From contig CAUYUJ010000192.1 in assembly GCA_963575745.1 (NCBI GenBank), positions 496,001-560,000 on the forward strand: 64,000 nt of DNA. The letters run 5' to 3'. Below the pieces are notes generated by a model, which saw only the letters and a program-made list of their open reading frames with translations, made no database searches and had not been told where the DNA came from. The stretch comes from Prorocentrum cordatum. Taxonomy: Eukaryota. The translations under genes were made by a program, and so were the position numbers. Positions 1 to 44,096 of this stretch are shown piece after piece; within the stretch, counting starts at the first letter, position 1, and the number at the start of each line of letters is the position of its first letter.

Positions 1-360
1 GTTGGCTCCGGGCATTCAAAATCATGCCCAGGAATGGAGTTCTGGGAAGTCGAAGACCACGAAGTGGCCTACAGTTGGCTCCGGGCATTCAAAATGTGGC
101 CCGGGAATGGAGTTCTGGGAAAGCTCGAAGAGCACGAAGTGGCCTACAGTTGGCTCCGGGCATTCAAAATGTGGCCCGGGAATGGAGTTCTGGGAAGTCG
201 AAGAGCACGAAGTGGCCTACAGTTGGCTCCGGGCATTCAAAATGTGGCCCGGGAATGGAGTTCTGGGAAGTCGAAGAGCACGAAGTGGCCTACAGTTGGC
301 TCCAGGCATTCAGAATGTGGCCCGGGAATGGAGTTATGGGAGGTCGAAGAGCACGAAGTG
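1..360. repeat. Tandem satellite, ~73-bp unit (GTTGGCTCCGGGCATTCAAAATGTGGCCCGGGAATGGAGTTCTGGGAAGTCGAAGAGCACGAAGTGGCCTACA), ~5 copies, cut by window start
   Basis: Unit starts at 1, 74, 149, 222 and 295; copies nearly identical. Confidence 0.95.
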
Positions 361-2009: not shown

Positions 2010-2761
2010 TAAAATGACCAGGGTACACGAGGCTCCGATGATTTGCTACCGAACCCCACCACGGCGGGGCGGGGAGCCCCAGAGTGCGTATCGAGAGCCC
2101 TCGGCGCGCGGGCGCTCCCGAGGCACAAACAGAAGCTGCTCGAGGCGGCCCAGGGACACGCAAGGACATACACACACAGATCCCAGGATTCTCCATCCTT
2201 TCGCCTCTGTTCTCGGTGTTCGTCTTCCCCCCCACTTCCCGCATGTTCCAGCATCTTCTGGGGCATCGGCGATTCATGGTGTCTGTGTTTTTTCCCTCCT
2301 GAGCTGCTCGAGGCGGCACGGGCACGGGGGAGCGTGTAGCTGCGAGCACGCGGGCAAGCGGGCGGGCGCGCCCCCGTCGGTCCGCGACGGGCCGGCCCTG
2401 CGAGGGCAGCGCAGGCGGGACGGGGCCCAAAGACCAGCTTCATGATTTGCTGTTTACAATTACACAATATGAAACTACTCTCCCACTTCCCCGGATGGCG
2501 TCCCGAAGATATCCGACACCCCCCCGCGTCTTGTTTTTTACACACAAGTTTCCCGGGAAACGGGGTTCCGCTTGTGTTTTCTTTTGTTTTTTCAAAATGC
2601 TGCTCCCGCTGAGGCGCCGGCCTCATTTCTGCTCCCAAATCGTTCCGAATCGTGCTCCCGCTGCAGCGTGGGCCTCATTTTCGGATCGGTGTTTGGCCTC
2701 CGTCGTTCAGGATGGCGTTCTCGCCCCAGCGCGGGCCTCTTTCTCGCGCGCCCATCCGCCC

Positions 2762-3020
2762 GCCACCACCGCGCCGCACCGCCACCACCACCACCACCAC
2801 CACCACCACCACCACCACCACCACCACCACCACCACCACCACCACCCACCACACACCAGCACCACCACCAGCACACCACCACCACCACAACCACCCACCA
2901 CCACCACCACCACCACCACCACCACCACCACCCCACCACCACCACCACCACCACCACCACCACCACCACCACCACCACGCACGCACGCACGCACGCACGC
3001 ACGCGCACCACCACCCACTA
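2762..3020. repeat. (CCA)n microsatellite with a (GCAC)n end
   Basis: Read directly from sequence. Confidence 0.95.
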
Positions 3021-3142
3021 CGCACGCGCGCGCGGAGCCACAGGTCCGCTACGACACGCGTCCGCGGATAGAGAAAATCAGCGCCATGGTAAGGGATGGG
3101 AGGGAGGGGTAGGACGTCAGATATGACGCGAGCGCACCTAGC

Positions 3143-3448
3143 TTGCCCCCCCCCTTCCTCCTCCTCCTCCTCCTCTCCTCCTCCTCCCCCTCCTCCTCCC
3201 CCCTCCCCCTCCCCTCCTCCCTCCTCCCTCCTCCTCCTCCCTCCTCCCTCCTCCCTCCTCCCTCCTCCCCCTCCTCCCTCCTCCTCCTCCTCCCTCCTCC
3301 CTCCTCCCTCCTCCCCTCCCTCCCTCCTCCTCCTCCCTCCCTCCTCCCTCCTCCTCCTCCTCCGCTCCTCCTCCCCTCCCTCGCTCCTCCCTCCTCCTCC
3401 TCCTCCTCCTCCTCCTCCTCCTCCTCCTCCTCCTCCTCCTCCTCCCCC
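3143..3448. repeat. Degenerate (CCT)n polypyrimidine microsatellite, 5' flank of the LINE
   Basis: Read directly; abuts the spliced leader. Confidence 0.95.
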
Positions 3449-3470
3449 TCCGTAGCCATTTTGGCTCAAG
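3449..3470 (+). other. Complete genomic copy of the 22-nt dinoflagellate spliced leader (TCCGTAGCCATTTTGGCTCAAG)
   Basis: Exact match to the DinoSL consensus DCCGTAGCCATTTTGGCTCAAG; followed by ATG rather than an SL-RNA intron, so it is mRNA-derived. Confidence 0.97.
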
Positions 3471-3664
3471 ATGCTTAGTTCCGCAGGGGAACAAGTGGAT
3501 ACCGCTAGTCCGCGGCCAGTTTGCAGTCCTTCCCCTGGTCAGCCCCAGGGCGAGCGCCGAGGTGGTCCGCCCCACCTCGGCGCGTCTCTCGCATTCTCAC
3601 TCGCTCGGGGCCTTTCAGCCTCGTGCATCGTGTTCCTGATCATCGTGTGCCTTGTTTCGGCAGG

Positions 3665-4801
3665 ATGGTGCCGCGCCCAGTCGCCGACAAGACTTGGCTG
3701 TGCAAGACCTGCATCCACGAGCGCACGGGTGAACCATTCTTCAATAAGGCTGACCGCACATCATGCTTCTCTTGCAGGCGGCCCAAGAGCAGTTGTTTCA
3801 AGGCCTACAAGACTTCCACCGCAGACCCGAGTGTGCACGCTGGAGGTCTCAAGGCTGGTGGCAAGAAGGCCGCTAGCGCTGGCTCGGCTCCTTGGGAGGT
3901 TGCCAAGCAGTTGCGACTGGCGCAGGAGACGATTGCCAAGCTCGAGAAGCAGATCCAGGCCAAGCAAGTGCCAGTGCCTGATGCCATGGGCGTGTCGGGG
4001 CCTAAGGCTATGGCAAATGATTTCGGTGAAGGCAAGTTTCGTGCACGTATTTTGGAGTTGGATAAGGAGATCGCAGTTGCCAGCAAAGGTGTTGGCGCAG
4101 CGTGGGATGTCCTCAAGGAGGCGCTCACAAAAGAACGCAGCGAGCTCCAGGATGAAATTAACAAGCACAAGCCTGCAGCCTCACGCATGTTCGTCGTTGG
4201 CAAGCAAATTGAGGCTATGGGCAAGCAGATTGCAAAGGCGGAGAAGGACGTTGACGACCAAAAGGCCGTCATCAAGGAGCTCCAGGATGTGCTGGGGCAG
4301 GCTGAGCAGAAGGTGCTGGACAAGAAGGCCAAACTGCTCGAGCTCCAGACCCAGCACGCTGACCTGGCGCGCCAGAACTATGTCCCACCTGTGCCTAATG
4401 ACGACGGTGAGGCTGGGCAGACTGTTCATGCTCTGGGCCTGGACACAACCAAGTTGGGTGAGGTGTTGCGCGCACTTGGAGCTGGAGACAGGACCGACGC
4501 CATCGCGCACGGTGTGGCTCAAGCACTGCCTCAGATTATCACGAATGCTCGGTTGCAACCAGTGGGCGCGACTCGACACCATGCAGGTCCTGAGCTGCTG
4601 GACAATGAGTCACTTGCTGATGACGAAGCTCCGCTGGTTCCTATCAAGGAAGCAACCGAAGACGCATTGCGGCCGTACCTGGCGGAGGCGGGTCAGGAGG
4701 TCCCCACATCTTTGGAGGAGATGCGTGACGCGGCCAATCGTCTCTGCAAGCTGGAGCAGCATGCCGAGCAGAGGAAAGGGCCAGGCTTCCAGGCCTACTA
4801 G
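3665..4801 (+). CDS. LINE ORF1 protein: N-terminal RanBP2-type zinc finger and long coiled coil
   Basis: WLCKTC-x10-NKADRTSCFSC fits W-x-C-x2-C...N-x6-C-x2-C; heptad-rich K/E/Q/L segments; ATG at 3665 is the second ATG after the SL; TAG at 4799-4801. Confidence 0.85.
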   Translation: MVPRPVADKTWLCKTCIHERTGEPFFNKADRTSCFSCRRPKSSCFKAYKTSTADPSVHAGGLKAGGKKAASAGSAPWEVAKQLRLAQETIAKLEKQIQAKQVPVPDAMGVSGPKAMANDFGEGKFRARILELDKEIAVASKGVGAAWDVLKEALTKERSELQDEINKHKPAASRMFVVGKQIEAMGKQIAKAEKDVDDQKAVIKELQDVLGQAEQKVLDKKAKLLELQTQHADLARQNYVPPVPNDDGEAGQTVHALGLDTTKLGEVLRALGAGDRTDAIAHGVAQALPQIITNARLQPVGATRHHAGPELLDNESLADDEAPLVPIKEATEDALRPYLAEAGQEVPTSLEEMRDAANRLCKLEQHAEQRKGPGFQAY

Positions 4802-4823
4802 GCCAAAGAGGCTAGTCCACGCT

Positions 4824-7800
4824 ATGATGATGTTCACTATACTGGTTAAGATGACGCATTCCGATTCTAAGATCAAGGGGCAGATTGTCACGGTCAATAC
4901 TGATGCAGCTGGCCCCTTGCTACGTTATGTGGAGCAGGCCACAGATGCGGTGATTTTGGTCCAAGAGCACAAGTCAGATGGATCAATGTTGCCCGGCCTG
5001 CAGTACAAGCTGAAGTGCATGGGTGCATGGGTTACCACGGCATATTCTCGGCGGCCAAGCGCACGGCAGCTGACGGGCTCTCAGCGGGGGTTGCTGTCAT
5101 CACGCCGAGCTTTATCACGATCACGGCGCCACCACTGCTCAAAGACCCTGAGATTGTGCCCTCTCGGGCTGCGGCAGCGCAGGTCAACTGGGGCCTCAAG
5201 AGTGGGCTGGTGGTCATATCCCTCTACTTGCAGGATTTCGTGGACCTGAATGACTACAACCTTATGATTCTACACAAGGTGGCGCAATACGTGGGCCGCC
5301 TCAATGCAGCAAATCGGCCTTGGGTCATTGGTGGTGACTTTAATATGAGTGCGAATTTGATTGGAGCTCAGGAGTGGGTGGCGCAGACGAATGCGTTGAT
5401 GATGGTCCCGTCGCACGTCACATGTCGCACCACCAACTCGGCTGAGGGCAAGATTTATGATTATTTTATAGTTCACTCCAAGTTGGCCGCCATCATTGAG
5501 CCACCAGATGTGGAGGCTGCAGGGCTACCCACGCATGCACCTGTGGTTCTTTCGATTCGAGCTGAGCCCAAGAAGATCTGGCTGAGGGTCCCTGTTGAGC
5601 CCAAGCAGTTACCAAAGCTACCCAAGCAAGGTTGTTCGCGATATCCTATGAACTGGGATCATGTGATGGGCACCACTCTACGTGCTCATGACGACGACAA
5701 CGCTCAAGATGGCTTGGGATGCAGTTACCACTGGAGTGGAATTTGAGATACTCAACAGGTACGACGTGGTTGACGATGAGGCTGCTCCGTACAGGGGCAG
5801 AGCTGGCCCGAGGGACACCAAGTTTGTCGAAGAACACTGGACCCCCAAGCGTGAGGCGGGAGGCCTTGGGCCGAACGCCTTAGCTTGGCTGGCTGCGGCC
5901 AGATGGGCGAAACATCTCATGAGAGTACGAGCCTTCTGGATCAAATTGGTGCAGGAAGCTGTGCGTGATGATAGGCGGGCGGGCGAATTTCACCTTCCTG
6001 ATTACAGCTCGCCCTGGACCAGCAGACAGCCATCCTTGGCGCCTGCAGCTGCAGTTCCTATGAGAGAGGAGTCAGAGGCAGGTGGCAACTGGACGACGGT
6101 CACCAGCAGGTCGAGTTCACAGAGGGCACCTACGAGTGGGTCATGCAGCCTACGCCCTATGAATGACGAGACTGCCCCGCGGCGCGTGTCCTCTGCTGAT
6201 CCGCGCATGCCCGCGGCTCTCAGCTCAGTGACCCCGTGCGGTGGGATCGCTGGAGGGCCGATGGCGCCGTGTACTGCAACTACTACCAATGATGTCTCTG
6301 CCCCTGGTAGAGGGCCTACGGGTACTGCTACGGCGACCGCGGCGACTGCGTCAGCCCCGAGGCCACGTGAGGATCCAGGGAATCCTGACAGAACGCAGCC
6401 CAGGAAGCAGCGAGCATCAGCGAGACTGAATCCCATTGACAGATTGGCTCGTTCGCTAGTGGACACAGATCGCTTCTTGCTCAAGATTGTGGGGCAGCAG
6501 AACCACATGTGGAGTCACCTGGGTGAGGAGACTCAGGGATTCTTCCTAGATGGCATCGCCTTGCTAGGGAGAGACGACTCCGAGCAGCAGATATACCGCA
6601 TAGTCGAGCGTGCTGATGAAGTTCACCAGGAGCATAGAAAGGAGGTGGAGGACAGCTGGAAGTCTTGGATCGACATGGCGTTCAAGAAAGGGGCAGGCCC
6701 TGCGCATCGCACGTCTAAGGTCAAGGCTTTGGAGGCAGCAGTGGCGCATACTGACAGAATGCAGCCGTACCAAATGGCCGACAGGGAAATGGATGTCTGG
6801 CATGAGGTATGGTCCTGCCATGGGCAGCGTGAGCCACCATTGCCGAGTGATGCGCATACATGGGAGGATCTTCCCCCGCTTCGGCCAGATGATTTGTCCA
6901 GGGCAGCTCCCGCGTTCACCTGGACGACGGCCACTGGGCCGACGAGGCTGCACCCTCGCGCATTTTTCTTCCTCTCTGATGCTGGCTTGTTGGCGCTCTG
7001 CACACTGTGCCACACATGCGAGAGGATGATGTACTGGCCGTCACAGAGAATTGTCAACGAGATGGTCAGGCTTGCCAAGCCCAATGGAGGCACGCGGCTG
7101 ATCACTTTAGTAGAGAGCATAGTACGTTTGTGGGCGCGAGCAAGGCGCCCGATTTCAAGAACATGGATTGTACAGCATGGGAGCCCTTTCATTTGGGGCA
7201 ACAGGAGGGGACACTCTTCCAGTTATTCCGCGTTTGCGCACAACCTAGAGGCGGAGATTGCTGCTTCTCTGGGAGAGAGTTCAGTCACTGTGTTTCTCGA
7301 TATGTGGAAATGTTTCGAGACAGTGCTGTTCCCTGCATTGTTTGAGGAAGCCAGGTGCCTGGGGTTCCCTCTTCGTTTATTATGGATGTTAATCAACTCG
7401 TATTCCCAGCCAAGGGTTATAAAGGCGTTTGGATGTTGGAGCAAGCAGGTGGTGGTGTACCAGGGCATCCTCGCGGGCTGCACCCACGCCACCACCCTCC
7501 TCACCATCCTCACCTACAGGGCCCTCATGAAGGTGCACCAGATAGCCCCCAACGTGACCCCGAGAGCGCTCGTGGATGACAGCACGTTCCAATGGGTTGG
7601 GCCGTCGGGGACTTCTTCGGCTGAGTTGTTCTTGGGGACCCAGAGCTTCGTCAAGGATTCGGCCAAGTTGGGGCTCCTGCTGCAGGTCAAGAAATCGGGC
7701 TGGGGCTCCAACACTAGGAAGGGGCACCTGGGGTTCCGCAAGTTGGCCTCAAGGATCAACCTCAAAAGCAAGAAGTGGGTCCGAAATCTTGGGCATGAAC

Positions 7801-10040
7801 TTGATGGGCCAGTTCCTGTGAGGAAACAAGCTAAGGCTAGGATGAAGGGCTTGCAGGACAGGCCCCCAAGGCTTATCATGCTCCAGAAGGCGGCGGGCAA
7901 CAGAGTCACCGCTATCTGGAGAACAGGACTTCTTCCAGCTGCTGCGCACGGCGCGACTGTATCTGGAGTCAGCGACCAGGAGCTTGCCCGTTTACGCTCT
8001 GTTGCTGGCATGTTATGTGGCCGTTCGACGGCAGTATCTTCTCTCACTGTATATCTGGCTACGCAGGCTGACGCCAAGTACGACCCAATTTACAATGCCA
8101 CCATGGACCCCCGGAAGGCCTACTGCAGCTTCGTCTGGGACAACAGAGTTTGCCTTGGGAGACTGCAGAGGGCCTGGATGAAGGTGGATGAGGGGCTCAA
8201 GATTAAGGCCTCTTGGACCTCGGCAAGGGGGCCCATTGCTGTGGTATGGATGTCTTTGAGGAGAATAGGATGGGGCATGTATTCCGCCACGGGGATCTAC
8301 AGCGACCTAGGTCACACGTTTGACCTCCTTCAGCTCTGTCCCAAGGACGTGCTGGAGTTGGTCAGGCAAGGCATCGAGCGCTGGCAAGGCATGCGTATAC
8401 TTACACATCATAAGGAGGTATGCTATGGGGATGAGGTCTTATGGATGAGAGCTATGAGGAGATGTATTGGTGCTAAGAAGGCAGTGGTCAGGCACCCACG
8501 TTTTGCTGGCGCGCTGCGTGCACTGTGGTCCGACTCTATTTGGTCACGTTCCAGACTGGCTGCCAAGGGGTACCAGATCTCCCCTGCCTGCATCTACTGC
8601 GCAGCGGAGCAATCGACCATTGGACACGAGTTCTTTCGCTGTCCTAGTTTTTACGATGACCTGCCTGAGGTGCCCGATCTCGACTGGAACACTGATATGC
8701 AGTACACATATGATATGTTAAGGGAGCTCGGACAGAAGGCCCTTGGAGAGCCCGACTGGGATTGTCTGGCAACGGCAGTAGGCATACCCGTGAGCCCTCT
8801 CATCCCACCGTATGTGGAGTTCAAGTTGCAGTACGGCTGCTGGGGTGACTGGGAGTCTGACAGAAGTTCCTGGAGCTCTTTGGTTTTCTCTGATGGTTCG
8901 GGGCTGGCCCCTGCGTGGCCTGAGATACGTCGATGTGGGTGGTCTTTCGTCGTCATGGGGGACAACGGGCTACCTGTTCGTGCGGCATATGGGCCCCTCG
9001 AGGGTCCGATACAAACGGTCGGGAGATCGGAGCGTATGGCTTTCCTCATGGCACTCAGGCTTTTACCTGCTGTGGACCTACTGGTGACAGATCTCCAGAG
9101 TCTGGCAGCTGAAATGGACTCCTGGCACCACGACCAGGAAGATGCGAATTCGACGTACGCAGACATCTGGAGGCACATCTTTCATGCTGCTGACGACAAG
9201 CGTCGGCCCAGAGCTTGCTGGACGCCTGCGCACATCACGATCGAGAGTTACCTGGAGGTACACTTCGGCACCCTCCCGTTTGAATTTCTGCTCGGGAACA
9301 TGTGGGCGGACTTTTTCGCCAGGGAGGGGGCCAACATGCACGCAGTACACAAATCGACGGTCCAAATGTTTGAGGCCAGGCTGAGCCAAGAGAAGTTGAA
9401 TGCTAAGTTCTTCTCCTGGGCGGCTGCTAAGCTCATAACCAGGGACTCCACCAGCAGTAGACCCGAGAGGCTCAAGTTAGGTGGCCCCCCGATTCCTGTA
9501 CAGCATGTAGGATTGCGTGTGCATGAGGTGGTCATCCGCAGTCCTGGGGTCTGGCAGTGCAAGAAATGTTTGGCCACGGCTCGGACCCCAGCCAGTTTGT
9601 TGAAACTCGTTGCGGGAACCAATAATTATGCTAAGTGTGAGCCAACGGAGCAACAAAAGCTCCAGGCCCGCAATGATGTTGTATTGCAGCGTGCATTGCC
9701 TTACAGGAGTGAGGCGGTCAACGTTGCGCTAGGTCTGGCGCAGGATCTCAGCCCACCCGATGACCCTGTCGTTCCTGGTCCGTCGGGGGCTCAGCAGCCG
9801 TGTGCAGACGACATTGTAGAGTTAGATGGCCACCGAATTCTCTCGAATCTCGGTGCAATGGTTTGCACATTGTGTGGGTCGTACCAGCTTAATGCTGGGC
9901 GTGCGGGGCACTCGAAGCTTGGAGGATGCTGCCTGGGCCCTTCCCAGCACCCCCCCACACTGTATAAGCAGAGGCATGCTATTAAGGCCATCAAGGCGGG
10001 TAAGAACCCCAAGAATGGCCAGCCGATCAAACTGTTTTGA
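4824..10040 (+). pseudogene. LINE ORF2 (APE endonuclease - RT - CCHC knuckle - RNase H - Cys/His motifs) with two frameshifts (~5015-5030 and ~5690-5701)
   Basis: APE motifs IVTVN, VILVQEHK (~4960), SAGVAVI, VISLYL, VIGGDFN (~5330), IYDYFIV, THAPV (~5531). RT motifs LAKPNGGTRLITL, FLDMWKCF (~7293), GILAGC, LVDD (7569-7580), RNLG. Knuckle CIYC-x8-H-x4-C (~8589). RNase H FSDGS (~8886), RSERMA, VTD, WTPAH, GNMWAD (~9294). Confidence 0.92.
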
Positions 10041-10100
10041 TGAGTTTCTTTGGCCCGCTCTGTTTTCCGTCACTTTTTCCCCTGGGAATCCACGGTAAAC

Positions 10101-10130
10101 GAGCTGGGCCCACATGATTGGCCCATGCTC
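10101..10130 (+). other. 3' UTR stem-loop of the LINE
   Basis: GAGCTGGGCC pairs with GGCCCA(T)GCTC around a 9-nt loop. Confidence 0.6.
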
Positions 10131-10163
10131 CCGTAGTTGGTTGCATGACAGGTCATCCGAGGC

Positions 10164-10347
10164 GTCCTCCTCCTCCTCCTCCTCCTCCTGCCCCTCCCCC
10201 TCCCCCACCCCCTCCCCCTCCCCCCCCGTCCTCCTCCTCCTCCTCCTCCTCCTCCTCCTCCTCCCCTCCTCCTCTTCTTTTTCCTCCTCCTCCTCCTCCT
10301 CCTCCGCCTCCTCCTCCTCCTCCTCCTCCTCCTCCTCCTCCTCCTCC
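10164..10347. repeat. (TCC)n tail and/or target microsatellite at the LINE 3' end
   Basis: Starts directly after the 3' UTR; no poly(A). Confidence 0.9.
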
Positions 10348-10484
10348 GCGAGGGCGCGGCGGCGGCGCGGGCGGGCCGGCTGGTACATCGCCACCCCGAA
10401 GGCGCCCTGCAGGTCGGCGGCCTCCGACGGCCCCCGGCGGCGGTCGCCAGCCGCCACCACCACCACCACCACCATCACCACCAA

Positions 10485-10900
10485 AAGCGGAGGAGTAACA
10501 CGCCGACGGGCTGCCAACGGTAGCGTGGAGCTCGCGTCATTCTCTTCTGACCTCTGGGAAACAGGACTCCTGTGCCCACGTCGCACAGACGGAACAGTGC
10601 AGCGCCATCTTGTGCCTGGCGCACCTCCTGCCGCAGACGCAGAGTTTGGCATTGCCCTCTGGACGCTCGACACTGGAATGTCCAAGGACGGCAACTCACG
10701 TCTGCATAGCGGGCACACTAGAACTGGGCCGTCGTGTTCGCAGCCCCAGCCTCTTCCTCCTCCTGCTCCTCCTCCCCAAGCACATATCCCTCCTATGCTA
10801 CATCCCCCTCCTCCTTCGGTGGCAACTCCTGGGAGCCTACCGAATCATCGTGTCGGCTCGTGCAAATCGACGCTCATCGACGCCACATCGACACTGAATC
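10485..10900 (+). repeat. Direct repeat copy 2 (partner 1180-1760), lacking the CCT insert
   Basis: Pairwise comparison by eye. Confidence 0.9.
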
Positions 10901-39059: not shown

Positions 39060-40120
39060 TCTTCGGTGAAGCTCCCTATGGGGCCACGGAGCGCAGCACC
39101 GGGTGGGGGGGAACGCATGCGGGCGGTAGCAGTGGGTCCGCCGGTTGGTTTCCCTATGGGGCCACGAAACGATGTACTGGGTGGGGGGGGCGCATGCGGG
39201 CGGTAGCACCGTGGCCTTCGGTGGAGCTCCCTATGGAGCCACGAAACGCAGTACTGGGGGGACGCATGAGGGCGGTAGCTCTGGGGCCGTCGGTGGAGCT
39301 CCCGACGGGGCCACAAAACGCTGTACAGGGTGGGGGGGGGCGCGTGCGGGCGGTAGCAGTGGGATCTTCGGTGGAGCTTCCTATGAGGCCGCGAAACGCC
39401 GCACTGGGTGGGGGGGACTCACGCGGGCGGTAACACCGGGGCCTTCGGTGGAACTTCCGATGGGGCCACGAAGCGCTGTACTGGGTGGGGGGGACGCATG
39501 CGGGCGGTAGCTTGAGCCGTCGGTGGGGCTCCCAATGGTGCCACGAAACGCTGCACCGGGGGGGGGGGGCGCATGCGGGCGGTAGCGGTAGGACCTTCGG
39601 TAGGGCTCCCTAGGCCACGAAACGCTGGGTGAGGGGGACGCGTGCGTGTGGTAGCACTGGGGCCGTCGGTGGAGCTCCCTAAGGGGCCACGAAGCGCTGT
39701 ACTGGGTGGGGGGGACGCAGGCGGGCGGTAGCACTGGGGCCGTCGGTGGAGCTCCCTATGGGGCCACGAAACGCAGTACTGGGTGGGGGGGATGCGGGCT
39801 GTAGACTTGGAGCCTTCGGTGGAGCTCCCTATGGGGCCACGAAGCGCTGTACTGGGTGGAGGGAACGCGTCCGGTAGCACTTGGGCCTTCGGTGAAACTC
39901 CCTGTGGGGCCACAAAACGTGTGAACGGTGTGCCGAAATGGGTGGGGGGGGCGCACGCGGGCGGTTCCAGTGGGGGCTTCGGTGGAGCTCCCTATGGGAC
40001 CACAAAACGCTTCACTGGGTGAGCGAAAATGCCAAATTGGGTGTGTGGGACACTGGGGGCTTCAGTGGAGCTCCCTATAGGGCCACGAAGCGCTGTACTG
40101 GCTGGATGAAAATGCCAAAT
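39060..40120. repeat. Tandem satellite, ~77-bp unit (GGTGGAGCTCCCTATGGGGCCACGAAACGCTGTACTGGGTGGGGGGGACGCATGCGGGCGGTAGCACTGGGGCCTTC)
   Basis: About 13 diverged units. Confidence 0.92.
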
Positions 40121-40124
40121 TCTG

Positions 40125-42824
40125 CGCGCGTGTGTGTGCGTGTGTGTGTGTGTGTGTGTATAAGCGTGTGTGTGTGTGTGTGTGTTTCTGTGTCTGTGTG
40201 TGTGTCTGTGTGTGTGTGTCTGTGTGTCTGTGTGTGTCAGTGTGTGTGTGTGTCTCTGCGTGTGCGTCTGTGTGTGTGTCTGTGTGTGTCTGTGTGTGTG
40301 TCTGTGTGTGTCTGCGTGGGTGTGTCTGTGTGTGTGCGTCTGTGTGTGTCTGCGTGTGTCTGTGTGCGTGTCTGTGTGTCTGCGTGTGTGTCTGTGTGCG
40401 TGTCTGTGTTTGTCTGTGTGTGTGTCCGTGTATGTATGTGTGTGTCTGTGTGTGCGTGCCTGTGTGTGTCTGTGTGTTTGTGTGTGTGTGTCTGTGTGTG
40501 TGTCTGTTTGTGTGCGTGTCTGTGTGTGTATGTGTGTGCGTCTGTGTCTGTGTGTGGCTGTGTGCGTGTGTGTGTGTGCGTGTGTGTGTGTGTCTGTGTG
40601 AGTGTGTGTGCCTGTGTCTGTGCGTGTGTGTCTGTGTGTGTGTCCGTATGTGTGTGAGCCTGTGTGTCTGTGTGCGTGTCTATGTCTGTGTCTGTGTGTG
40701 CGTCTGTATGTGAGTCTGTGTGTCTGTGTGTCTGTGTGTGGCATTGTGTGTGTGTCTGTGTGTGTGTCTATGTGTCTGTGTGTGTGTCTGTGTGTGTCTG
40801 TGTGTGTGCCTGTGTGTGAGCCTGTGTGTGCGTCTGTATGTGTGCCTGTGTGTGTGTCTGTGTGTGTGGCTGTGTGTGTGTCTCTGTGTGTGTCTGTTTG
40901 TGTGTGTCCGCGGCTGTGTTTGTGTCTGTGTGTGTGTCTGTGTGTGTGTCTGTCTGCGTGTGTGCCTGTGTGTGTGTCTGTGTGTGTGTCTGTATGTGTG
41001 TCTGTGTGTGTCTGTCTGTGTGTGTGTCTGTGTATGTCTGTGTGTGTTTGTCTGCGGGTGTGTGTGTGTGTCTGTGTGCCTGTATGTGTCTCTGTGTGTG
41101 TCTGTGTGTCTCTGTGTGTCTGTGTGTGTTTGTGTCTGTGCATTTCTGTGTGTGTGTGTCTCTGTGTCTGTGTGTCTTTGTGTGTGTGTCTGTGTCTGTG
41201 TGTGTCTGTGCCTGTGTGTGTCTGTGTCTCTGTGTGTGTCTGTGTCTGTGCGTCTCTCTGTCTGTGTGCGTCTGTGTCTGCGTGTGTCTGTGTGTGTCTG
41301 TGTCTGTGTGTGTCTGCGCCTGTGTGTGTCTGCGTGTGTGTCTGTGTGTGTGTCTGTGTGTGTGTCTGTGTCTGTGTCTGTGTGTGTGTCTTTGTCTGTG
41401 TGTCTGTGTCTGTGTGGTTGTGCCTGTGTGTGTCTGTGTCTGTGTGTGTCTGTGTCTGTGTGTGTCGGTGTCTGTGTCTGTGTGTGTCTGTGTGTGTGTC
41501 TGTGTGTGTCTGTGTCTGTGTGTGTGTGCCTGTGTGTGTATGTGTCTGTGTGTGTCTGCCTGTGTGTGCCTGTGTGTGTCTGTGTAGTCTCTGTGTGTCT
41601 GTGTGTGTCTGTGTGTGTCTGTGTGTATATGTGTCTGCGTGTGTGTCTGTGTGTCTCAGTGTGTGTCTCTGTGTGTGTCTCTGTGTGTGTCTCTGTGTGT
41701 GTGTCTCTGTGTGTGTGTCTCTGTGTGTCTCTGTGTGTGTGTCTTTGTGTGTGTCTGCCTGTGTGTGTCTGTGTGTGTCTGTGTAGTCTCTGTGTGTCTG
41801 TGTGTGTCTGTGTGTGTGTGTCTGTGTGTGTCTCTGTGTCTGTGTGTGTGTCTGTGTGTCTCAGTGTGTGTCTCTCTGTGTCTCTGTGTGTGTCTCTGTG
41901 TGTGTGTCTCTGTGTGTGTCTCTGTGTGTGTCTCTTTGTGTGTGTCTCTGTGTGTGTCTCTGTGTGTTCCTGTGTGTGTTTCTGAATGTGTCTCTGTGTG
42001 TCTCTCTGTGTGTGCTTCTGTGTGTGTGTCTCTGTGTGTGTGTGTCTCTGTGTGTCTCTGTGCGTCTCTCTGTGTGTCTCTGTGTGTGTCTCTGTGTGTG
42101 TCTTCGTGTGTGTGTCTGTGTGTGTTTCTGTGTGTGTCTCTAAGTGTGTGTCTCTGTGTGTCTCTCTGTGTGTTTCTGTGTGTTGTCTCTGTGTGTTGTC
42201 TCTGTGTGTTGCCTCTGTGTATTGTCTCTGTGTGTTGCCTCTGTGTGTTGTCTCTGTGTTGTCTCTGTGTGTTGTCTCTGTGTGTTGTCTCTGTGTGCTG
42301 TCTCTGTGTGTTGTCTCTTTGTGTGGTGTGTGTGTGTTGTGTGTGTTGTGTGTGCGTGTGTGTGCGTGTGTGTGCGTGTGTGCGTGTGTGTGTGCGTGTG
42401 TGTGCGTGCGTGTGTGCGTGCGTGTGTGTGTGTTTGCGTGTGTGTGCGTGTGTGTGCGTGTGTGTGTGTGAGTGTGTGTGTGTGAGTGTGTGCGTGTGCG
42501 TGTGCGTGTGTGCGCGTGTGTGTGCGTGTGTGTGCGTGTGTGTGCGCGTGTGCGTGTGTGTGCGCGTGTGTGCGCCGGTGTGCGCGTGTGCGCGTGTGCG
42601 CGTGTGCGCGTGTGCGCGTGTGCACGTGTGCGCGTGTGCGCGTGCGCGCGCGTGTGCGCGTGCGCGCGCCGGGCGGCGGGCGGGCGGGCGGGCGGGCGGG
42701 CGGGCGGGCGGGCAGGCGGTCGGGCGTGCGTGCATGCGTGCGTGCGCGCGTGCGCGCGCGCGCGGGCGTGCGTGCGTGCGGGCGGGCGGGCGGGCGGGCG
42801 TGCGGGCGGGCGTGCGTGCGTGCA

Positions 42825-42892
<68 letters not shown>

Positions 42893-42900
42893 TGTGTGTG
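40125..42900. repeat. ~2.8-kb (GT)/(GTCT)/(GTGC) microsatellite expansion
   Basis: Read directly. Confidence 0.97.
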
Positions 42901-42904
42901 GTGG

Positions 42905-43705
42905 TGGGGGGGGAACGCATGCGGACGGTCCCACTGCGGGCTTCGGTGGAGCTCCCCATTGGGTTCAAAGCTGTACTGAGTAAGTAAAAATGCCACATTA
43001 AGTGTGTGAGGCGCATGCGAGCGGTCCCACTGGGAGTTTCGGTGGAGTTCCCTGTGGGGCCACGAAGCGATGCACTGGTTGGGTGAAAATGCCAAATTGG
43101 GTTTCCAGGAAGCACGCGGACGGTCCCACTGAGGGCTTCGGTGCTGTGGTGCCACGAAACGATGTACTGGGTGGGTGAAAGTGCCAAATTGGGTTTCCGA
43201 GACGCATGCGGACGGTCCCTCTGCGGGCTTCGGTGGAGCTCCCTGTGGGGCCACGAAGCGCTGTACTGGGGACACGAAACGCTATACTGGGTGAGTGGAA
43301 ATGCCAAATTGGGCTTCCAGAGCTCCCTATGGGGCCACGAAGCGCTGTACTGGGTGAGTGAAAATGCCAAATTAGGCTTCTAGAACGCATGCGGACGGTC
43401 CCACTGCGGGCTTCGGTGGAGCTCCCTATGGGGCTACGCACGGCGTGCTGGGTGAATGAAAATGCCAAGTTGGGATTCCGAGACGCATGCGGACGGTCCC
43501 TCTGCGGGCTTCGGTGGAGCTCCCTATGGAGCCACGAAACATTGTACCGGGTAGGTGAAAATGCCAAATTGGGCCCCCGAGACGCATGCGGACGATTCCA
43601 CTGCGAGCTTCGGTGGAGCTCCCTGTGGGGCCACCAAACGCTTTACTGGGTAGGTAAAAATGCCAAATTGGGTTTCCGGGACGCATGCGGACGGTCCCAC
43701 TGGGG
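42905..43705. repeat. Continuation of the 39-kb satellite with longer (~92-bp) units containing GAAAATGCCAAATTGGG
   Basis: Same GGAGCTCCCTATGGGGCCACGAA core. Confidence 0.9.
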
Positions 43706-44096
43706 GCCTCGGCGAAGGCCCAGGAGAGATAGAAGAAGGGAAAACCTCATACACATAGAATTTTGGCGCTCCGCGCAGACTTCTTGATCCGCGCCTGGGC
43801 CCCCTCGGCGGTGCCTCCGGCGCCGCCCCTGGCGCGCTTCGCACGCCAAGGAGTTGAGCAGGGACTGACCTTCCCGGCATTCCTGTAGGCCTACCGCGAG
43901 ATGTTCTTAGAACCCCAAAAATGTTCGAATAACAAAAACAATGTTCTTCGAACATAAGCGCGGAGCGCCAAAAGTTTATGTTTGTTGTTGTTTTTCTTCT
44001 AAGTATGCGGCGACGCCGTTCCTGGCCCTGGGCCCACCACGGTCCCAGGGACCGGAACGGCCGGGATCGGTGCACCAGTTGCAGCATATAGCATTA

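What the first reader, a model, noticed from the sequence alone, without database searches (positions are those of the whole stretch)
3449..10163. LINE retrotransposon whose 5' end is a complete spliced leader: possible trans-splicing-dependent life cycle
Seen: the element begins exactly with the 22-nt DinoSL, with microsatellite upstream and no SL-RNA gene context. Known: dinoflagellate mRNAs get the SL by trans-splicing, and SL-bearing retrogenes exist. Other LINEs make their 5' ends with internal promoters or self-cleaving ribozymes, and SLACS/CRE/NeSL elements insert into SL-RNA genes. Inference: the parent transcript was trans-spliced and reverse-transcribed to its very 5' end. Recycled retrogenes often show stacked 15-nt relic SLs, but here there is one intact SL. 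That fits re-splicing at the SL's terminal AG each cycle, which would regenerate an identical capped 5' end from read-through transcription without an element promoter.
Basis: partly seen in the sequence, partly recalled or inferred. Interest (0 to 1): 0.9.

Follow-up and report, generated by a model that had tools for sequence, protein, structure and literature searches.

The report
Dinoflagellate LINE starting with spliced leader
A dead copy of a dinoflagellate jumping gene (a LINE) begins with the short leader that these cells splice onto every mRNA, and related copies share that start, so the family seems to copy itself from fully processed mRNA, though how a new copy gets expressed is still unknown.

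Summary
An exact DinoSL sits at 3449-3470 and is the only one in 64 kb. It directly abuts a 6.7-kb non-LTR retrotransposon with a 5'UTR, ORF1 (3665-4801) and ORF2 (4824-10040: APE, RT, zinc finger, RNase H), then a 123-nt 3'UTR and no poly(A).

New points:
- This copy is dead. It has an 8-nt tandem duplication at 5013-5028 and one extra base near 5699.
- The (TCC)n beside it is probably not a random flank. A relative with 57% identical ORF2 ends in a homologous 3'UTR plus (TCC)n. Integration into (TCC)n would leave a pyrimidine tract upstream of a full-length copy.
- It is not a one-off. Contigs from three studies show the same leader|ATGC junction on diverged 5'UTR variants.
- No ribozyme or SL-RNA gene context was found.

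The leader came from a trans-spliced template RNA copied to its 5' end; this is a strong inference. Regeneration by re-splicing at the leader's last AG is plausible but untested: no RNA data and no full-length sister copies could be obtained. One intact leader does not by itself discriminate between models. None of my four literature searches found a paper stating that a LINE starts with the DinoSL.

Verdict: new variant of a known kind, interest 0.62.

The parts
3156..3448 (+). Upstream imperfect (TCC)n tract. It is a pure pyrimidine run on the element's sense strand and is probably the target microsatellite.
   Evidence: TRF rows 3156-3451; sequence read. A relative also abuts (TCC)n at its 3' end.
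3449..3470 (+). DinoSL spliced leader encoded in DNA. 21 nt are certain; the first T is ambiguous with the repeat.
   Evidence: The consensus sequence is quoted in PMC7245778 (passage).
3471..3664 (+). 5'UTR. An ATG directly abuts the leader (3471). The next ATG is the ORF1 start (3665; sequence read). A 12-bp hairpin lies at about 3555-3582. The first 49 nt or so are shared with other contigs.
   Evidence: sequence; fold, z -2.29; loose ends behind 3474, 3482, 3517-3520, 3581, 3594.
3665..4801 (+). ORF1, 378 aa, with an N-terminal CX2CX17CX2C zinc-finger-like motif and a coiled coil. The stop codon is conserved in a copy that is 97% identical.
   Evidence: only weak coiled-coil families; zinc-finger region matches P0031 and P0020; P0161, 287/296 identical, same C-terminus.
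4824..10040 (+). ORF2: APE endonuclease (~4870-5640), RT (~7077-7700), zf-RVT-like (~8496-8645), RNase H (~8880-9330) and a C-terminal Cys/His motif (~9830-10010). It is read in three frames because of two frameshifts.
   Evidence: (invariant columns).
5013..5028 (+). 8-nt tandem duplication (GTGCATGG twice) that shifts ORF2 out of frame.
   Evidence: One X2 contig lacks 8 nt at 5015 (5.53 of 9.56 depth); no X1 contig does (0 of 43.1) (table 4).
5695..5703 (+). One extra base relative to most family contigs; this is the second frameshift.
   Evidence: table 4: 'left out 1' at 5699 in X1 (57 of 68.3 depth) and X2 (4.27 of 4.27). Frames.
10041..10163 (+). 3'UTR without poly(A). The last ~45 nt (10119-10163) are conserved in a distant relative.
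   Evidence: alignment to L120.
10165..10347 (+). (TCC)n tract at the 3' end: the element's tail and/or the rest of the target microsatellite.
   Evidence: L120 has (TCC)n at the same position relative to its 3'UTR.

Best explanation
What it is (shown): a decayed full-length copy of a multi-copy dinoflagellate non-LTR retrotransposon. Its layout is ORF1 (zinc finger plus coiled coil), then ORF2 (APE-RT-zinc finger-RNase H), a short conserved 3'UTR, no poly(A), and a (TCC)n tail or target.

How the leader got there (strong inference, about 0.85): the RNA that templated this copy was a mature, SL-trans-spliced transcript, and the reverse transcriptase copied it to its first base. The leader|ATGC head is inherited within the family rather than being an accident of this locus (supported, about 0.75).

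How the family most likely propagates (inferred, about 0.4 for the full chain):
1. The (UCC)n end of the RNA pairs with a nicked (TCC)n/(GGA)n microsatellite.
2. A full-length daughter therefore lands with a long pyrimidine tract just upstream on its sense strand, followed by the encoded leader with its two AGs.
3. The copy is transcribed by read-through from neighbouring transcription.
4. The host trans-splicing machinery uses the pyrimidine tract and the AG at the end of the encoded leader. It replaces the leader with a fresh capped one and regenerates an identical 5' end, so no element promoter or ribozyme is needed.
For: - Exact leader abutting the LINE, unique in the window.
- LINE domains. 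The family is large: 3818 clusters at E<=1e-3.
- The family is multi-copy in four public runs: 856, 117, 130 and 445 contigs laid at >=85% identity.
- The same leader|ATGC junction occurs on diverged 5'UTR variants. Loose ends behind 3474 (3 contigs, X4) and 3482 (1, X1) continue as recognisable homologues of 3479-3506 (21/26 identical). Contigs with a 1-nt deletion at 3474 occur in X2 and X4 (table 4).
- Six contigs have unlike sequence directly before 3449/3450 (X1 3, X2 1, X4 2, table 7).
- An internally deleted form joins 3516 to 9543 (table 5c).
- No Rfam ribozyme or other RNA family at E<=1 in 3000-10600.
- The 3'UTR end plus (TCC)n is conserved in L120, whose ORF2 is 57% identical.
- The upstream tract is about 296 nt of pure pyrimidine.
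- Diverged subfamilies that keep one leader at one junction are easiest to explain if leader-bearing copies are themselves sources and are re-spliced at the terminal AG.
Against: - No RNA evidence at all.
- No complete sister copy was seen, so the share of full-length copies that carry the leader is unknown.
- Depth over 3595-3660 is low (X1 18.3 from one contig, X2 0, X4 4.82, X6 0) against 55-350 in the body. Either most copies differ there or they are truncated.
- The 6 'before 3449/3450' contigs could be other leader-tagged retrocopies, because the aligner lays matches as short as about 26 nt.
- The first AG after the pyrimidine tract is at leader positions 6-7, the site that published relics imply is commonly used (PMC12014239, passages). 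That would give leader plus a 15-nt relic, not a clean leader.
- The (TCC)n trait rests on two members only.
- Only 1 of the 19 TCC/GGA tracts in the window follows the 3'UTR motif.
- This copy is dead, so it says nothing about expression.
Confidence: 0.42

Rival explanations
1. Internal promoter or initiator. Sequences in the 5'UTR (or the T-rich core of the leader itself) direct RNA polymerase II to start at or near the first base of the encoded leader, as internal promoters do in other LINEs. The leader is then a fossil of one ancient trans-splicing event. It is kept because it is the transcript's +1 region, perhaps also because a leader-like 5' end helps translation.
For: - The head (leader plus about 49 nt) is shared by several otherwise different contigs and by an internal-deletion derivative, as expected for a functional 5' module.
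- The 5'UTR is moderately structured (z -2.29).
- Song et al. 2017 propose that the T-rich motifs of DNA-encoded leaders act as promoter elements (PMC5585692, passages).
- Giant-virus contigs encode the leader directly behind their own promoters, so a DNA-encoded leader at a transcript start can evidently be useful.
Against: - No promoter assay or transcription start data exist.
- A transcribed leader would lack the modified cap of the true SL RNA.
- The model does not explain why the family sits behind a pyrimidine tract.
Confidence: 0.22
2. Master-copy model. A few source elements have no encoded leader but carry a conserved AG acceptor just before ATGC. All leader-bearing copies, this one included, are dead-on-arrival daughters that never serve as sources.
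For: - One intact leader is exactly what a first-generation copy looks like.
- This copy is broken.
- LINE families are often driven by few masters (general knowledge).
Against: - A master LINE is itself a product of retrotransposition and so should carry the leader if it is full-length.
- The junction is shared by 5'UTR variants about 20% diverged. That would require several leaderless masters, all keeping the same acceptor position.
Confidence: 0.2
3. One-off event. A single LINE transcript happened to be trans-spliced, and the leader is private to this locus or to segmental duplicates of it.
For: Only one copy lies in the window, and no complete sister copy could be fetched.
Against: Leader|ATGC junctions occur on diverged UTR variants in runs of three studies, and unlike flanks lie before the leader.
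Confidence: 0.05
4. Site-specific insertion into an SL-RNA gene (as in SLACS, CZAR, CRE or NeSL), so that the leader would be the 5' half of a disrupted host gene.
For: Such elements exist in other trans-splicing organisms (recalled, not from a call).
Against: - The whole leader is present and is followed by the element.
- The 3' flank is (TCC)n, not the rest of an SL-RNA gene.
- The upstream sequence is microsatellite.
- No RNA gene was detected.
- The endonuclease is APE-type, not restriction-like.
Confidence: 0.01

Closest known systems
SymbioLINE elements of Symbiodinium (de Mendoza et al. 2018, PMC5890265; passages read)
   Same: Both are dinoflagellate LINEs with Exo_endo_phos, RVT_1 and RNase H in ORF2, conserved 5' and 3' UTRs, and no poly(A) tail.
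   Different: ORF1 there is a DNA methyltransferase; here it is a zinc finger plus coiled coil. That paper's main text has no occurrence of 'spliced leader', 'splice leader' or 'DinoSL'; its supplements were not read. Sequence relatedness to SymbioLINE was not tested here.
DinoSL-tagged retrogenes, i.e. recycled cDNAs (PMC12014239, PMC5585692, PMC6050394, PMC7245778; passages)
   Same: Both have a DNA-encoded leader at the 5' end, left by reverse transcription of a trans-spliced mRNA. Song et al. found the GO term 'RNA-dependent DNA replication' enriched among leader-tagged genes, so leader-tagged RT genes were implicitly seen before.
   Different: Here the tagged unit is the autonomous retrotransposon itself. 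It has no poly(A) and has its own 3' tail and target. The leader is heritable across subfamilies, with no relic stack seen at this copy.
L1Tc/ingi of trypanosomes (Pr77 internal promoter plus HDV-like ribozyme; PMC3383444, PMC1874656, PMC3185411; titles and abstract starts only, search listing)
   Same: Both are LINEs in a host where mRNAs are made by polycistronic transcription and SL trans-splicing, and both must solve the problem of defining their own 5' end.
   Different: L1Tc uses its own promoter and ribozyme and gives unspliced transcripts. Here no ribozyme was found and the 5' end is the host leader itself.
SLACS, CZAR, CRE and NeSL elements (recalled, not from a call)
   Same: Both associate a non-LTR element with spliced-leader sequence.
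   Different: Those insert into SL-RNA genes using a restriction-like endonuclease. This element has an APE endonuclease and lies in a (TCC)n microsatellite.
LINEs with microsatellite tails or targets, for example I factor with (TAA)n and R1-clade elements that target repeats (recalled)
   Same: Both have a short tandem repeat instead of poly(A) at the 3' end, and insertion into the same repeat is likely.
   Different: Here the repeat is all-pyrimidine on the sense strand. In a trans-splicing host it could therefore double as a splice-acceptor tract.

Membership tests
APE-type non-LTR retrotransposon (LINE) | Reverse transcriptase of the non-LTR type | tested here: met
   RVT_1 at 29.8 bits against a cut-off of 29.6. 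The family profile hits L1 ORF2p at 1.2e-09 and R2 at 1.5e-09.
APE-type non-LTR retrotransposon (LINE) | Apurinic-endonuclease-like domain N-terminal to the RT | tested here: met
   Exo_endo_phos is weak on the single sequence (0.0086). The family profile hits ExoIII at 7.8e-07 and APE1. The APE region aligns to many relatives.
APE-type non-LTR retrotransposon (LINE) | No long terminal repeats | tested here: met
   Self-BLAST of the element against the window gives only the self hit.
APE-type non-LTR retrotransposon (LINE) | Target-site duplication | tested here: inconclusive
   Both flanks are (TCC)n, so no duplication can be delimited.
SymbioLINE-like dinoflagellate LINE | APE-RT-RNase H ORF2, conserved UTRs, no poly(A) | tested here: met
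   RNase H is supported by the profile (2lsn 1.5e-05) and by the invariant DGSG...E...D columns. There is no poly(A). The 3'UTR end is conserved with L120.
SymbioLINE-like dinoflagellate LINE | DNMT encoded in ORF1 | tested here: not met
   ORF1 has no Pfam DNMT hit, only weak coiled-coil families.
L1 clade | RT groups with L1 references in a phylogeny | not tested
   No reference set of LINE clades could be brought in. The PDB profile hits to L1 and R2 are equally weak. The Atlas tool was unreachable.
SL-RNA-gene-specific elements (SLACS/CRE/NeSL) | Insertion inside an SL-RNA gene, with a restriction-like endonuclease | tested here: not met
   The flanks are microsatellite, no RNA gene was detected, and the endonuclease is APE-type.
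DinoSL-tagged processed retrocopy | Leader at the 5' end in genomic DNA | tested here: met
DinoSL-tagged processed retrocopy | Poly(A) remnant at the 3' end | tested here: not met
   The 3' end runs into (TCC)n and no A-run is present.

The most novel reading that the evidence does not exclude
A LINE family that has handed its whole 5'-end problem to the host. It integrates into (TCC)n repeats, which supply a pyrimidine tract. It carries the spliced leader in DNA, whose last AG serves as the acceptor. Each round it is re-capped by trans-splicing of read-through RNA, so it needs no promoter or ribozyme.

There is a possible further twist. The AUG that abuts the leader (3471) opens a reading frame with no stop for 598 codons. 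That frame runs across the 5'UTR and all of ORF1, and it is the frame of ORF2. Without this copy's two frameshifts, one ORF would run from the leader to the end of ORF2. An AUG only 22 nt from the cap would be read leakily, which could set a low ORF2 : high ORF1 ratio.
Probability: 0.25. Interest if true: 0.85.

Novelty: new variant of a known kind. Interest (0 to 1): 0.62.

Why it matters
Every LINE must recreate its own 5' end at each generation. The known solutions are internal promoters and self-cleaving ribozymes.

Dinoflagellates have huge genomes shaped by retroposition, little known promoter biology, and universal trans-splicing. Which element supplies the reverse transcriptase, and how that element is expressed, are open questions in the retrogene papers read here (PMC5585692, PMC6050394, PMC12014239).

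A LINE family whose inherited 5' end is the host leader gives a concrete, countable system for three purposes:
- testing whether trans-splicing can replace a promoter;
- asking which AG of an encoded leader is used;
- identifying a candidate source of the reverse transcriptase behind leader-tagged retrogenes.

If the family simply uses an internal promoter, the finding reduces to an expected by-product of universal trans-splicing.

Tried and rejected
- **Whole genome:** none is held for this window, so the proposed census of 5' junctions could not be run.
- **Other copies in the window:** none by blastn or tblastn.
- **Earlier notes of this scan:** nothing on this genome or on look-alike sequence.
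- **RNA evidence:** no RNA holder was listed. Of the four runs laid, X1, X2 and X4 are listed as 'DNA?' (a guess) and X6 as '?'.
- **JGI metagenome contigs:**
  - ORF1 query: 240 pattern matches, 0 relatives.
  - A 6-sequence alignment gave 3 partial loci, none reaching the 5' end.
- **IMG/VR viral contigs:**
  - ORF1: 13 pattern matches, 0 relatives.
  - ORF2 alignment: 43 pattern matches, 0 relatives.
  - Leader+UTR pattern: 0 stretches.
  - The plain leader gave 119 stretches. None encodes a relative of this LINE by tblastn, even at E<=1.
- **GTDB genome contigs with the leader+UTR pattern:** 25 hits, all on records titled as bacterial genomes or MAGs and about the number I reckoned for chance (~28, rough). 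None was inspected or run against the LINE ORFs.
- **Protein database:**
  - The frame-0 translation (P0003) gave no hit among proteins of 325-1036 aa.
  - ORF1 gave one hit, a 97%-identical fragment without its 5' end.
- **Solved structures:** the single ORF2 sequence gave no hit at E<=1.
- **Neighbouring genes:** 36 large ORFs of the window were sent to Pfam. Two gave sub-threshold hits of no use, so the direction of neighbouring transcription is unknown.
- **Diverging contig ends:** consensus sequences were compared with the window, with no meaningful match.
- **Tools not answering:** The taxa of relatives and a named-clade placement are therefore missing.
- **Rejected reading:** insertion into an SL-RNA gene.
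- **Literature:** four full-text searches and passages from 12 papers gave no statement that a LINE's 5' end is the DinoSL. Supplements were not read.
Full report
**Observation.** One search shows T + CCGTAGCCATTTTGGCTCAAG at 3449-3470, followed at once by ATG (3471).
- The 21 fixed bases are an exact match to the dinoflagellate spliced leader as quoted in PMC7245778 (passage).
- It is the only match in 64 kb even with 3 mismatches; shuffles give 0.01.
- No separate 15-nt relic exists with up to 2 mismatches.
- The first T fits the leader's variable first position but could also be the last base of the upstream repeat.
- Upstream is an imperfect (TCC)n tract at 3156-3451. Downstream of the element is another at 10165-10347.
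- No Rfam family reaches threshold in the window. None reaches E<=1 near the 5' end apart from three irrelevant weak hits. There is no tRNA.
- The leader is followed by ATGC, not by the GT of an SL-RNA intron.

**Anatomy.**
- ORF1 (3665-4801, 378 aa) starts with a CX2CX17CX2C motif followed by coiled coil. Its zinc-finger region matches the N-termini of relatives P0031 and P0020.
- ORF2 starts 22 nt after the ORF1 stop, at ATGATGATG (4824). It carries an APE endonuclease, RT (RVT_1, 29.8 bits against a cut-off of 29.6), a zf-RVT-like motif (below cut-off), RNase H and a C-terminal Cys/His motif.
- A profile of 18 family members hits L1 ORF2p (1.2e-09), R2 (1.5e-09), ExoIII (7.8e-07) and an RNase H (1.5e-05) among solved structures. 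The single sequence hit nothing.
- ORF2 is broken twice:
  - An 8-nt tandem duplication lies at 5013-5028. One X2 contig lacks these 8 nt; no X1 contig does.
  - One extra base lies near 5699. Most family contigs lack it: X1 57 of 68.3 depth, X2 4.27 of 4.27.
- The copy is therefore dead.
- There are no LTRs and no poly(A).

**The family.**
- The RT-RNase H part finds 3818 clusters at E<=1e-3 and 281 at E<=1e-30 among 1.84 billion representatives.
- Named hits are unnamed proteins of Prorocentrum cordatum at 31-37% identity. The source species itself is not identified.
- A 97%-identical ORF1 fragment ends at the same stop codon, so the two-ORF layout is not private to this copy.
- Some relatives (P0011, P0020, P0024, P0026, P0031) have the zinc-finger/coiled-coil part in frame with the APE. 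Their sources could not be looked up, so gene-model artefacts cannot be excluded.
- The closest described elements are the SymbioLINEs (PMC5890265, passages): APE-RT-RNase H, conserved UTRs, no poly(A). Those carry a DNMT as ORF1, and that paper's main text does not mention a spliced leader.

**Is the leader a one-off?** No genome is held, so I laid the contigs of four public runs from four studies on 3440-10170 at >=85% identity.
- The element is multi-copy in all four: 856, 117, 130 and 445 contigs laid.
- The very high depth of the first bin is just the leader, which is shared with everything else.
- The informative part is the set of contigs that must contain the leader because they match only up to 3474 or 3482.
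  - Three such contigs occur in X4 and one in X1. Their continuation is a recognisable but diverged homologue of the 5'UTR: 21 of 26 identical for the X4 consensus, and the GGATACCGCT motif for X1.
  - Two more contigs (X2, X4) span the junction with a 1-nt deletion at 3474.
- At least six contigs from three studies therefore join the leader to variants of this UTR at the same ATGC.
- Six contigs have unlike sequence directly before 3449/3450 (X1 3, X2 1, X4 2). The X2 one reads CTCCTCCT.
- One X1 contig joins 3516 to 9543 with a 10-nt filler, which is an internally deleted derivative that keeps the head.
- Several contigs in X2, X4 and X6 share the stretch up to 3517-3520 and then run into other sequence.

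Caveats:
- The aligner lays matches as short as about 26 nt, so the 'before' contigs may be unrelated leader-tagged retrocopies.
- 110 loose ends and 841 variant sites were not shown.
- Depth over 3595-3660 is low (X1 one contig, X2 and X6 none).
- The fraction of full-length copies that carry the leader is unknown.

All other attempts to fetch sister copies failed.

**The microsatellite is probably part of the system.**
- L120 is a metagenome contig whose ORF2 is 57% identical. It ends in a 3'UTR whose last ~45 nt align with 10119-10163, and it runs straight into (TCC)n at the same point.
- This is two members only, but they are distant ones.
- A (UCC)n RNA end priming on a nicked (TCC)n/(GGA)n repeat would leave (TCC)n both behind and in front of a full-length insert, as seen here.
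- On the sense strand that places about 296 nt of pure pyrimidine immediately before the leader. From general splicing knowledge, this is the context of a 3' splice site. I found nothing on acceptor tracts in dinoflagellates.
- Against a pure 'tail' reading: of 19 TCC/GGA tracts of 18 nt or more in the window, only this element's tract follows the 3'UTR motif.

**Mechanism.**
- What I take as near-certain is that the template RNA of this copy, or of an ancestor, was trans-spliced and was copied to its 5' end.
- Template switching onto SL RNA would have copied the SL intron and would not give a fixed junction.
- Insertion into an SL-RNA gene is excluded by both flanks and by the APE endonuclease.
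- The better argument is the shared junction on diverged UTR variants. If leader-bearing copies are themselves sources, their precursors must be spliced at the last AG of the encoded leader, or else started at its first base. Otherwise relics would pile up.
- Against this, the first AG after the pyrimidine tract is at leader positions 6-7, the site that published relics imply is commonly used (PMC12014239, passages).
- My probabilities: the re-splicing cycle about 0.4, an internal promoter about 0.2, a leaderless-master model about 0.2.

**An unexplained extra.**
- The ATG that abuts the leader opens frame 0, which has no stop from 3456 to 5249 (598 codons). It runs across the UTR and all of ORF1, and it is the frame in which ORF2 starts.
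- Stops expected in that frame of ORF1:
  - 9.0 by codon-order shuffle; 0 of 20,000 shuffles were stop-free.
  - 3.1 by synonymous shuffle; P = 0.007.
  - ORF2 itself has 43 such stops in 1451 codons.
- The leader-adjacent ATG and the spacing to the GATACCG motif are kept in the two variant UTR consensus sequences seen.
- An X6 variant lacks 63 nt, a multiple of three, between 3594 and the ORF1 start.
- Against a coding role: the translation is low-complexity, no such protein of 325-1036 aa is in the database, and ORF2 has its own ATGs just after the ORF1 stop.
- This was noticed after the fact and is only suggestive.

**Known or new.**
- Leader-tagged retrogenes are well known.
- Song et al. 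even found 'RNA-dependent DNA replication' enriched among them (PMC5585692, passages), so leader-tagged RT genes were implicitly seen.
- In four full-text searches and passages of 12 papers I found no statement that a LINE's own 5' end is the DinoSL, nor any proposal that trans-splicing replaces a LINE promoter. Supplements were not read.
- In a host where every mRNA is trans-spliced the bare observation is expected. The heritable head and the pyrimidine-repeat target or tail are what make it worth following.
- I rate it a new variant of a known kind, with interest 0.62.

Noticed in passing
L001-L119 (IMG/VR contigs, mostly giant-virus MAGs; e.g. L011, L020, L024, L051, L106): The exact DinoSL is DNA-encoded many times per contig in AT-rich giant-virus MAG contigs. 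Each copy lies directly behind a conserved AT-rich motif and in front of a different gene start. This looks like viral promoter-plus-leader cassettes, i.e. leader mimicry without trans-splicing.
   Followed up: partly
L067 (IMG/VR contig, 5319 nt), minus strand: The contig begins with the DinoSL and encodes a 788-aa ORF with a viral RdRP_1 domain (E 4.9e-07). It is either a leader-tagged transcript or endogenous copy of a dinoflagellate RNA virus, or the virus itself.
   Followed up: partly
Proteins P0044, P0046, P0062, P0080, P0084, P0095, P0109, P0112, P0128, P0138, P0139, P0149: 12 of the 22 N-termini printed for relatives of ORF2 carry a 2A-like motif (R[IV]GEA.NPGP or close) upstream of the APE domain. 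2A-like peptides in LINEs are known from other clades (recalled). The window's element has none.
   Followed up: no
window 3456-5249, frame 0: A stop-free frame of 598 codons starts at the leader-adjacent ATG, overlaps all of ORF1 and is continuous with ORF2's frame. P = 0.007 by synonymous shuffle.
   Followed up: partly
window 3470->8504 and 3516->9543 (contigs of run X1): One contig joins the leader directly to 8504, although the skipped part does not end in AG. Another joins 3516 to 9543 with a 10-nt filler. These look like short derivatives that keep the leader head and the 3' end.
   Followed up: no
window 3555-3582: A 12-bp GC-rich hairpin lies in the 5'UTR. The whole 5'UTR folds with z = -2.29.
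   Followed up: no
window 40001-44000: Base composition is extremely skewed here (GC skew +0.47, AT skew -0.87 in 40001-42000), with long overlapping open frames on both strands and no Pfam hit.
   Followed up: no
window 1-360 and 2747-3004: A 73-nt tandem repeat (4.9 copies) lies at the window start. A long (CAC)n/(CACG)n tract lies just upstream of the (TCC)n tract.
   Followed up: no
L047, L049, L084 (GC-rich IMG/VR contigs): These are leader-bearing GC-rich contigs with long ORFs that have no Pfam match. L047 and L084 share similar sequence right after the leader. They may be other leader-headed repeats of dinoflagellates.
   Followed up: partly
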